This document shows positions 14,793-15,095 of a stretch of 64,000 nt of DNA, piece after piece. The translations under genes and the position numbers were made by a program. Under the pieces are notes generated by a model. It ran no database searches. It had not been told where the DNA came from and saw only the letters and a list, made by a program, of their open reading frames with translations. The first letter of the stretch is position 1. Every line of letters begins with the position of its first letter. The stretch is from Escherichia coli (lineage in GTDB: Bacteria; Pseudomonadota; Gammaproteobacteria; Enterobacterales; Enterobacteriaceae), in the NCBI RefSeq assembly GCF_050320075.1, contig NZ_CP190018.1. One strand, given 5' to 3'.

Positions 14793-15095
14793 AAAAAAAT
14801 TTTTTTTCGAAAGAACTGTTCACACTGTTCACCTTTCTGTTTTCTCCTTTTATTTCAGAGTGATAGGTGGTGAATAATGGGTGAAGGGTGAACATTCGAT
14901 TCTTCACCTCCGGCATTCTGCCGGTGTGACTCATACCGGTGATTAATCCCCCGAACTGAAATCACACAGGGAGAAAAAAGTTTTTTTTTGATTTGATTGT
15001 TCACACTGTTCACCTTTCATTTTTCTCTTTAAATTTCAGTGTGATAACGGGTGAATATACGGTGAAGGGTGAACAGTGGATTGTTCACCTTCGGG
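14793..15095. repeat. crr-like cis replication region: two ~120-bp direct repeats (period 181 bp), each carrying TGTTCACC / GGTGAACA iterons
   Basis: TGTTCACA + TGTTCACC at 14817-14833 and again at 14998-15014; GGTGAACA at 14887 and 15068; TGTTCACC at 15082. Lies immediately downstream of the alpha gene, as P4 crr does. Confidence 0.7.

What the first reader, a model, noticed from the sequence alone, without database searches (positions are those of the whole stretch)
14793..15095. crr-like cis replication region directly downstream of the alpha gene
Two ~120-bp direct repeats recur with a 181-bp period, each carrying TGTTCACA/TGTTCACC and GGTGAACA octamers. This matches my recollection of P4 crr (two 120-bp repeats separated by about 60 bp carrying the alpha-binding iterons).
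Basis: partly seen in the sequence, partly recalled or inferred. Interest (0 to 1): 0.45.

Follow-up and report, generated by a model that had tools for sequence, protein, structure and literature searches.

The report
P4 satellite replication site (crr)

Summary
The observation and the interpretation both hold. Window 14794-15094 carries two 120-bp direct repeats (97/120 identical, period 181 bp). It lies 45 bp beyond the stop of a 777-aa primase-helicase gene on the minus strand, with that gene's terminator in between.

[quoted passage not shown] All ten annotated type-1 iterons are identical, and every difference from P4 falls outside them.

The rest of the replicon is intact. The alpha protein matches P4's at 772/777 residues, and none of the five changes lies in the origin-binding segment solved as PDB 1ka8. 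cnr is present, and a six-iteron ori lies 4.7 kb away.

The host element is an 11.3-kb P4-like prophage bounded by a 23-bp att repeat at selC. crr-like sequence occurs in 1144 of 5426 complete E. coli genomes.

The likely mechanism is inferred from P4: alpha binds the crr iterons and crr acts in cis with ori to allow initiation.

One by-product may be new. In relatives from other Enterobacterales the crr unit has a fixed iteron geometry but occurs in one to three copies, and defence-type cargo genes often sit between alpha and the terminal unit.

The parts
14794..15094 (.). crr (cis replication region), whole: repeat 1 + 61-bp spacer + repeat 2
   Evidence: 96.5% identical to P4 X51522 4291-4590, annotated crr
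14794..14913 (+). crr 120-bp repeat 1 (alpha-distal unit, next to the att arm)
   Evidence: 120/120 identical to P4 4291-4410; starts with an A6/T8 tract; P4 homology begins exactly here
14914..14974 (.). 61-bp spacer between the repeats (GC 0.51)
   Evidence: 5 of the 8 differences from P4 within crr lie here; no iterons
14975..15094 (+). crr 120-bp repeat 2 (alpha-proximal unit)
   Evidence: 2 substitutions and a 1-bp T-run insertion relative to P4 4471-4590, none in iterons; this is the unit conserved across relatives
14817..14824 (+). type-1 iteron TGTTCACA
   Evidence: = P4 4314-4321
14826..14833 (+). type-1 iteron TGTTCACC
   Evidence: = P4 4323-4330
14869..14876 (-). type-1 iteron TATTCACC
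   Evidence: = P4 4366-4373
14880..14887 (-). iteron-like CCTTCACC (not annotated in P4)
   Evidence: occupies the +20 position, which reads TGTTCACC in many relatives
14887..14894 (-). type-1 iteron TGTTCACC
   Evidence: = P4 4384-4391
14901..14908 (+). type-1 iteron TCTTCACC
   Evidence: = P4 4398-4405
14998..15005 (+). type-1 iteron TGTTCACA
   Evidence: = P4 4494-4501
15007..15014 (+). type-1 iteron TGTTCACC
   Evidence: = P4 4503-4510
15050..15057 (-). type-1 iteron TATTCACC
   Evidence: = P4 4546-4553
15061..15068 (-). iteron-like CCTTCACC (not annotated in P4)
15068..15075 (-). type-1 iteron TGTTCACC
   Evidence: = P4 4564-4571
15082..15089 (+). type-1 iteron TGTTCACC
   Evidence: = P4 4578-4585
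15115..15132 (-). t-alpha rho-independent terminator hairpin (GACCGGCATCTGCCGGTC followed by a T7 run)
   Evidence: terminator scan; fold -14.1 kcal/mol, z = -5.6; P4 annotation 4604-4628; stem conserved in all 31 aligned relatives
15140..17473 (-). alpha gene: primase-helicase-origin-binding protein, 777 aa
   Evidence: 772/777 identical to P4 alpha; Pfam Zn_Ribbon_Prim, Toprim_3, D5_N, DUF5906, Pox_D5; residues 671-770 match PDB 1ka8
17488..17808 (-). cnr (P4 ORF106), copy-number regulator gene
   Evidence: collinear with P4 6984-7304; Pfam DUF5375, 2.9e-63
19805..19908 (.). ori: six exact TGTTCACC iterons (19805-, 19815-, 19826-, 19848+, 19891-, 19901-), 4.7 kb from crr
   Evidence: same number, strands and spacing as P4 9310-9413
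14641..14663 (+). att direct repeat (partial copy of the selC 3' end), the element end next to crr
   Evidence: 23-bp exact repeat TTTGGCGGAAGATCACAGGAGTC, also at 25900-25922; E. coli genomes with an empty site match the query only up to about window 14663-14672, and a tRNA-Sec gene is annotated under that match
25900..25922 (+). att direct repeat inside the 3' end of the intact selC gene (tRNA-Sec 25902-25996, minus strand), the other element end

Best explanation
Window 14794-15094 is the crr of a P4-like satellite prophage. It is the second, distant half of P4's bipartite replication origin.

Shown here:
- It is orthologous to the P4 crr.
- It carries the same ten or so alpha-type iterons, arranged in two units. 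In each unit, two groups of iterons point inward across an AT-rich core of about 35 bp.
- Its partners are all intact in the same element: alpha, cnr and the six-iteron ori 4.7 kb away.

Inferred from my recollection of the published P4 work:
- When the prophage is derepressed or excised, alpha binds the crr iterons and the ori iterons through its C-terminal winged-helix domain.
- The two alpha-DNA complexes interact, looping out the intervening DNA.
- Only this paired complex permits opening and priming at ori, so crr works in cis as an essential enhancer of initiation, not as the start site.
- Cnr bound to alpha tightens binding at both sites and restrains copy number.

One unit is probably sufficient, and the tandem duplication is a lineage-specific elaboration.
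For: Homology:
- 96.5% identity to the annotated crr of P4, embedded in 6.1 kb of collinear homology at 96.9%.
- All ten annotated iterons are identical.

Constraint:
- Relative to P4, repeat 1 has 0 changes in 120 bp, repeat 2 has 3 and the 61-bp spacer has 5. None touches the 12 iteron-like octamers (Fisher p = 0.01 for spacer against repeats).
- Across 31 distinct proximal units from other genera, iteron columns keep a major-allele frequency of 0.93 against 0.705 for other columns.
- The iteron geometry 0(-), +13(+), +20(+), +31(+), +75(-), +84(-) is retained in both proximal and distal units.

Same binding protein at both sites:
- The octamer is enriched only at crr and ori in the whole 64-kb window.
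- In one Pantoea lineage the iteron core changes to CTTCAC at both ori and crr.

Cognate protein:
- Alpha is 772/777 identical to P4 alpha, and none of the five changes lies in residues 671-770, the segment solved as the P4 origin-binding domain, PDB 1ka8 (PMC2777425 cites that structure).

Element integrity:
- cos, int, both att repeats, sid, psu, a delta gene, the CI RNA and cnr are all present.

The GenBank annotation and recent P4 engineering papers call crr the 'cis required region for replication'.
Against: - Nothing here measures binding, looping or replication.
- The classical papers (Flensburg & Calendar 1987; Ziegelin et al. 1993, 1995; Tocchetti et al. 1999) are not in the held library. 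The mechanism steps therefore rest on my recollection plus database annotation.
- The conservation statistic comes from loci chosen for having at least 3 iteron cores, so it is biased upward.
- The ori/crr co-variation is essentially one evolutionary event.
- Many distant relatives (alpha about 58-60% identical) keep an ori iteron cluster but show no detectable crr within 5 kb after alpha. A crr is therefore either not universal or not recognisable there.
Confidence: 0.88

Rival explanations
1. The sequence is crr by descent but is now an inert relic. On this view the prophage is cryptic and the site no longer does anything.
For: - The element sits integrated in the chromosome.
- P4-like elements are very common in E. 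coli, with crr-like DNA in 1144/5426 genomes, and some of them are known to be decaying.
- Its delta gene encodes 81 aa against 166 aa in P4, and P4 10437-10902 is missing.
Against: - Every replicon part is intact: alpha is full length, cnr is present, ori has 6/6 iterons and crr has 10/10.
- cos, int and both att repeats are also intact.
- Differences from P4 avoid the iterons and cluster in the spacer, which points to continuing constraint.
- The 81-aa delta still has a full Ogr_Delta zinc finger. From memory, single-domain delta proteins occur in functional P4 relatives.
Confidence: 0.06
2. crr is mainly a negative control element. It would act as a bank of iterons that titrates alpha or handcuffs ori to limit copy number, like incA of P1 or the extra iterons of F and RK2, and not as a positive requirement.
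For: - These are iterons placed outside the origin.
- Unit copy number varies from 1 to 3 among relatives, which would be expected for a dosage-type regulator.
- From memory, Cnr acts by increasing alpha's affinity for both ori and crr.
Against: - P4 genetics, as recalled and as recorded in the annotation 'cis required region for replication', show crr is needed for replication, not inhibitory.
- The position and geometry of the unit are conserved next to alpha.
- The two roles are not exclusive.
Confidence: 0.04
3. crr is itself an origin, or a helicase loading site, where unwinding starts.
For: Each unit looks like an origin. Inward-facing iteron groups flank an AT-rich core of 26-31% GC, and the unit ends in an A/T tract.
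Against: - From memory, P4 replication was mapped as bidirectional from ori, and crr works in either orientation and at varied distance.
- The alpha-binding ori, with six regularly spaced iterons, is present and intact here.
Confidence: 0.02

Closest known systems
crr of Enterobacteria phage P4 (GenBank X51522 4291-4590; X05623)
   Same: - Two 120-bp direct repeats.
- Ten type-1 iterons identical in sequence, order and strand.
- The same position between the alpha terminator and the att region.
- 96.5% nucleotide identity.
   Different: - The period is 181 bp against 180 bp, from one extra T in the T-run.
- There are five substitutions in the spacer and two in the AT-rich core of repeat 2.
- Homology to P4 stops at the outer edge of repeat 1, because this element carries a different att/int module (selC; P4's own site is leuX, from memory).
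P4 ori (ori1), X51522 9310-9413; here window 19805-19908
   Same: It uses the same TGTTCACC iteron and is presumably bound by the same alpha domain.
   Different: - ori has six exact iterons at about 10-11-bp phasing, with type-2 repeats nearby.
- crr units have mixed exact and degenerate iterons in two opposed groups around an AT-rich core.
- From memory, ori is the start site and crr is not.
Single-unit and split crr of P4-like satellites in Citrobacter, Enterobacter, Klebsiella/Raoultella, Kluyvera, Edwardsiella, Pantoea and others (loci L002-L081)
   Same: The unit is the same: terminator, six iteron positions at 0, 13, 20, 31, 75 and 84, then an A/T tract.
   Different: - Most have only one unit immediately after alpha, sometimes with further units 0.7-2.7 kb away.
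- Some carry 0.7-2.5 kb of cargo between alpha or the proximal unit and the terminal unit(s).
- The window has the P4-type tight tandem with no cargo.
Auxiliary iteron banks of iteron plasmids (P1 incA, F incC, RK2; recalled from general knowledge)
   Same: These are initiator-binding repeats placed away from the origin, with pairing between two iteron sets bound by the same initiator.
   Different: In those plasmids the extra iterons are inhibitory and dispensable. P4 crr is reported to be required in cis. The initiator here is a primase-helicase, not a Rep/DnaA-dependent protein.

Membership tests
P4 crr (cis replication region) | Two directly repeated ~120-bp sequences separated by ~60 bp | tested here: met
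   14794-14913 and 14975-15094, 97/120 identical, 61-bp spacer
P4 crr (cis replication region) | Type-1 iterons (TGTTCACC and one-base variants), five annotated per repeat, on both strands | tested here: met
   All ten are identical to the P4 annotation; exact octamer 14 observed against 2.07 expected in the window
P4 crr (cis replication region) | Nucleotide homology to the P4 crr | tested here: met
   96.5% identity over 346 bp, E = 4e-160; residue-by-residue alignment
P4 crr (cis replication region) | Location just beyond the 3' end and terminator of alpha, between alpha and the att site | tested here: met
   alpha stop at 15140, terminator at 15115-15132, crr ends at 15094, att repeat at 14641-14663
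P4 crr (cis replication region) | A cognate alpha protein with the iteron-binding C-terminal domain in the same element | tested here: met
   772/777 identity to P4 alpha; none of the five changes lies in residues 671-770, the segment matching PDB 1ka8
P4 crr (cis replication region) | A partner ori with the same iterons several kb away in cis | tested here: met
   Six TGTTCACC at 19805-19908, 4.7 kb from crr
P4 crr (cis replication region) | Bound by alpha protein in vitro | not testable with these tools
   Needs EMSA or footprinting; inferred from sequence identity only
P4 crr (cis replication region) | Required in cis for alpha-dependent replication from ori | not testable with these tools
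   Needs a mini-replicon deletion test
Independent replication origin | Site where DNA synthesis starts | not testable with these tools
   The anatomy is origin-like (iterons around an AT-rich core), but start-site mapping is experimental
Structured RNA or small protein gene | Match to a curated RNA family, or a conserved ORF | tested here: not met
   Rfam finds no family in 14794-15094. The only ORF, 14855-15013 on the minus strand (52 aa), spans the spacer, which is absent from single-unit relatives

The most novel reading that the evidence does not exclude
The crr unit may be more than P4's two repeats. It could be a conserved, portable module that marks the alpha/att end of P4-like satellites and brackets a second accessory-gene slot.

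In the 78 alpha-relative loci with enough downstream sequence to scan, from other Enterobacterales:
- 11 have one unit right after alpha and one or two more 0.7-2.7 kb further on.
- 9 have units only, 0.7-2.3 kb after alpha.

The intervening low-GC DNA encodes defence-type proteins: BovA, an AriA/OLD-like ATPase, a PDC-S15 FRG protein and a PDC-S25 SIR2 protein. On this reading the window's 61-bp spacer is the 'empty' state of that slot. The repeated units would supply the flanking homology for cargo exchange, while replication tolerates any spacing.

The two large P4-like surveys read here never mention crr and describe no cargo slot beyond alpha.
Probability: 0.35. Interest if true: 0.4.

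Novelty: already known. Interest (0 to 1): 0.12.

Why it matters
For this window it matters little. It confirms that the 14.6-25.9 kb segment is an apparently complete P4-like satellite prophage at selC, with a full replicon: crr, alpha, cnr and ori.

It does show that standard RefSeq annotation leaves crr unlabelled or covers it with a 'hypothetical protein'. Sequence-only recognition of such cis sites therefore adds information.

The family survey has more general value. The crr unit has a fixed iteron geometry, a variable copy number, and cargo inserted between units. This gives a cheap marker for the true alpha-side boundary of P4-like satellites and points to a possible second cargo slot.

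Tried and rejected
- **Classical P4 replication papers.** I looked for them in the held library and none is held. Mechanism statements therefore rest on GenBank annotation, secondary citations and memory.
- **RNA families.** An Rfam scan of 14000-26100 finds nothing in crr. It finds only tRNA-Sec, C4/CI RNA, isrK and c4-a1b1 elsewhere.
- **Coding reading.** The 52-aa ORF at 14855-15013 (minus strand) is rejected, because it spans the non-conserved spacer.
- **Spacer as a decayed copy of the alpha terminator region.** If true, the duplicated unit would be the whole 181 bp. The alignment beyond the 120-bp repeat is poor and the spacer folds only weakly (z = -2.0), so this is not supported.
- **Int/cargo module against phage records.** Megablast of 21830-25900 gave no match, so I could not tie the selC module to a named phage.
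- **Exact TGTTCAC counting.** At first this suggested that several close relatives lack crr. A relaxed cluster scan showed their units are displaced downstream by inserted genes.

Full report
**1. The observation**

Window 14400-15600 was read directly. The repeat finder returns a single strong family of two 122-nt direct copies, at 14792-14913 and 14973-15094. They are 81% identical with a start-to-start spacing of 181. In register with the P4 annotation the copies are 14794-14913 and 14975-15094, 97/120 identical, with a 61-bp spacer.

Exact TGTTCACC occurs 14 times in the 64-kb window against 2.07 +/- 1.34 expected, and 0 of 100 shuffles reach 14. Eleven of the 14 lie in two clusters: five in this 300-bp stretch and six at 19805-19908.

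A 777-aa ORF on the minus strand (15140-17473) ends 45 bp from the repeats. A strong terminator hairpin sits in between at 15115-15132, folding at -14.1 kcal/mol with z = -5.6.

**2. What it is**

A blastn search of 14700-15140 against phage records hits only Enterobacteria phage P4 (X51522, NC_001609, X05623). The match is 96.5% identical over window 14794-15140 = P4 4291-4636.

[quoted passage not shown] It lists two 'crr 120bp direct repeat' features (4291-4410 and 4471-4590), ten 'ori type 1 repeat' features, then the alpha terminator and the alpha gene. Mapping those ten iterons onto the window shows all ten identical in sequence, strand and order.

The pairwise alignment shows these differences from P4:
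- Repeat 1 is 120/120 identical.
- The spacer carries five substitutions.
- Repeat 2 carries two substitutions, both in its AT-rich core, plus one extra T in the T-run. This makes the period 181 bp where P4 has 180.
- None of the differences touches any of the 12 iteron-like octamers. The spacer is significantly more diverged than the repeats (Fisher p = 0.01).

**3. Context**

The whole of P4 4291-10436 is collinear with window 14794-20931 at 96.9% identity, and P4 10903-11624 with window 21084-21805.

| Feature | Window position | Evidence |
|---|---|---|
| alpha, 772/777 identical to P4 alpha | 15140-17473 (-) | |
| cnr / ORF106 | 17488-17808 (-) | |
| CI (C4) RNA | 18924-19011 (-) | |
| ori, six TGTTCACC with P4's strands and spacing | 19805-19908 | |
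| cos, 19-nt cohesive end | 21806-21824 | |

The five alpha changes lie at residues 100, 103, 104, 126 and 775. None falls in residues 671-770, the stretch solved as the P4 origin-binding winged-helix domain, PDB 1ka8 (that structure is cited in PMC2777425). ORF151, epsilon, alpA/ORF88, sid, psu and a delta gene are also present.

The element is bounded by a 23-bp exact direct repeat, TTTGGCGGAAGATCACAGGAGTC, at 14641-14663 and 25900-25922. The second copy is the 3' end of an intact tRNA-Sec gene. A tyrosine integrase gene (24576-25739, minus strand) lies next to selC.

The window is E. coli chromosome. One genome (strain YZLc1-3) is 100% identical over 13900-15300. Genomes with an empty site match the query only up to about window 14663-14672, where a tRNA-Sec gene is annotated. 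326 genomes share this exact setC-crr junction.

Homology to P4 begins exactly at the outer edge of repeat 1 (14793/14794). To the left is a 130-bp, 25%-GC att arm that belongs to the different integration module.

**4. How it most likely works**

Shown here:
- The site is orthologous to P4 crr.
- It carries the iterons that also make up ori.
- The protein whose C-terminal domain recognises those iterons in P4 is encoded next door, with no change in the solved DNA-binding domain.
- The site has evolved under constraint on the iterons.

Inferred from the P4 literature as I recall it (Flensburg & Calendar 1987; Ziegelin et al. 1993, 1995, 1997; Tocchetti et al. 1999; Briani et al. 2001; none is held in the library):
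- Alpha binds type-1 iterons in both ori and crr.
- The two complexes interact across the intervening DNA.
- crr is required in cis for initiation at ori and works in either orientation.
- A single 120-bp repeat suffices.
- Cnr increases alpha's affinity for both sites to limit copy number.

The annotation 'cis required region for replication' is repeated in recent P4 engineering work.

**5. Comparative support**

Eighty loci encoding alpha relatives (56-87% identical) were fetched from one genome per species across Enterobacterales.

*Conserved unit.* About 35 of them, essentially those with alpha at least 74% identical, have a conserved unit directly after the alpha terminator. Iterons sit at fixed offsets 0(-), +13(+), +20(+), +31(+), +75(-) and +84(-). 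An AT-rich core lies between +39 and +75, and an A7-8/T6-8 tract closes the unit. This unit corresponds to the window's repeat 2.

*Column conservation.* In the alignment of 31 distinct units, iteron columns have a major-allele frequency of 0.93. Other columns score 0.705 and the terminator stem 0.99. The loci were chosen for having at least 3 iteron cores, which inflates this figure.

*Tandem duplication is a subclade trait.* The P4-type tight tandem duplication (period 166-181 bp) is confined to a subset: the window, P4, L002, L004, L010, L011, L013, L033 and L036. That fits the recalled result that one repeat is enough.

*Co-variation.* In one Pantoea lineage (L040, L044, L077) the iteron core is CTTCAC in both ori (4 of 5) and crr (3 of 3-4). 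This is what recognition of both sites by one protein predicts, but it is effectively a single evolutionary event.

*Distant relatives.* In those with alpha about 58-60% identical, an ori cluster is usually present but no crr is detectable right after alpha. The site is either displaced, diverged or dispensable there.

**6. Rivals**

- An inert relic is unlikely, because every replicon part, cos, int and both att repeats are intact and the substitutions avoid the iterons.
- A purely negative, handcuffing role is not excluded as a second function, but it conflicts with the recorded cis requirement.
- An independent origin fits the anatomy (iterons around an AT-rich core) but not the recalled mapping of initiation to ori.
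- RNA and coding readings are rejected. Rfam finds nothing in crr, and the only ORF spans the non-conserved spacer.

**7. Novelty and score**

This is the P4 crr, annotated in GenBank since the late 1980s, in a P4-like prophage of a kind found widely. crr-like DNA occurs in 1144 of 5426 complete E. coli genomes, and P4-like elements occur in over 30% of Enterobacterales genomes (PMC8628076).

The finding is correct and already known, so interest is low (0.12).

The by-product may be new. Crr units are modular, vary in number, and in 20 of the 78 loci with enough downstream sequence to scan they bracket or follow 0.7-2.5 kb of low-GC cargo. That cargo includes BovA (755 bits), an AriA/OLD-like ATPase, a PDC-S15 FRG protein and a PDC-S25 SIR2 protein. 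The last unit always abuts an AT-rich, repeat-bearing att-arm-like sequence.

Neither Rousset et al. 2022 (PMC9122126) nor Moura de Sousa & Rocha 2022 (PMC8628076) mentions crr or a cargo slot beyond alpha. Rousset et al. describe only the psu-int hotspot. [quoted passage not shown] I did not survey this systematically and could not check the rest of the literature.

Noticed in passing
L018 5093-7791; L023, L024, L028, L025, L027, L030, L021, L035, L041, L079 (proximal unit, cargo, then distal unit or units); L003, L007, L070, L005, L020, L058, L063, L072, L075 (alpha, cargo, then unit or units): In many P4-like satellites from other Enterobacterales, crr units are separated from alpha or from each other by 0.7-2.5 kb of low-GC DNA. 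That DNA carries defence-type genes: BovA (755 bits), an AriA/OLD-like ATPase, a PDC-S15 FRG protein and a PDC-S25 SIR2 protein. This may be a second cargo slot, not mentioned in the two P4-like surveys read.
   Followed up: partly
window 21843-24563 (-): A 906-aa protein with an N-terminal SIR2-like domain (Pfam SIR2_2, 4e-24; weak ThsA and PDC-S25 matches) occupies the known psu/cos-int defence hotspot of this P4-like element. No phage record matches this module at the DNA level.
   Followed up: partly
window 20809-21054 (+), and the gap in P4 homology at 20931-21084: The delta gene encodes 81 aa with one Ogr_Delta zinc finger, against 166 aa in P4, and P4 10437-10902 is absent. From memory, single-domain delta proteins exist in other P4 relatives such as phiR73, which also uses selC.
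   Followed up: partly
window 14664-14793: The 130-bp, 25%-GC segment between the att repeat and crr has no P4 homology. It contains near-repeats (TTATACACATCCTTATACATA) resembling those after the last crr unit in L018 and L023. These are probably arm-type integrase binding sites of the selC-specific module.
   Followed up: no
window 18924-19011 (-), 19110-19200 (-): Rfam finds the P4 immunity RNAs: C4/CI antisense RNA, isrK and the c4-a1b1 target. The RNA-based immunity system of P4 is therefore present too.
   Followed up: no
window 14398-14562 (+) and surroundings, 14009-14640: An AT-rich stretch between setC (12824-14008, minus strand, MFS transporter) and selC carries a short rhuM-family remnant, according to RefSeq annotation of matching genomes. 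It is host backbone and is also present in strains with an empty selC site.
   Followed up: no
window 14855-15013 (-); RefSeq records H29-H31, H35, H37; NC_001609: Several RefSeq records, including the P4 reference NC_001609, annotate a 'hypothetical protein' under the crr match. The only ORF there in the window is a 52-aa frame running from repeat 2 through the spacer into repeat 1. This is probably an annotation artefact, because single-unit relatives cannot encode it.
   Followed up: partly
L037-L081 (alpha about 57-70% identical): Most distant relatives keep a 4-8-iteron ori cluster about 2 kb upstream of alpha but show no recognisable crr within 5 kb downstream. L056 is an exception, and a variant unit (geometry 0+, 12-, 22-, 87-, 96-) lies 1-2.3 kb downstream in L063, L072 and L075. 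Whether crr is dispensable there is open.
   Followed up: partly
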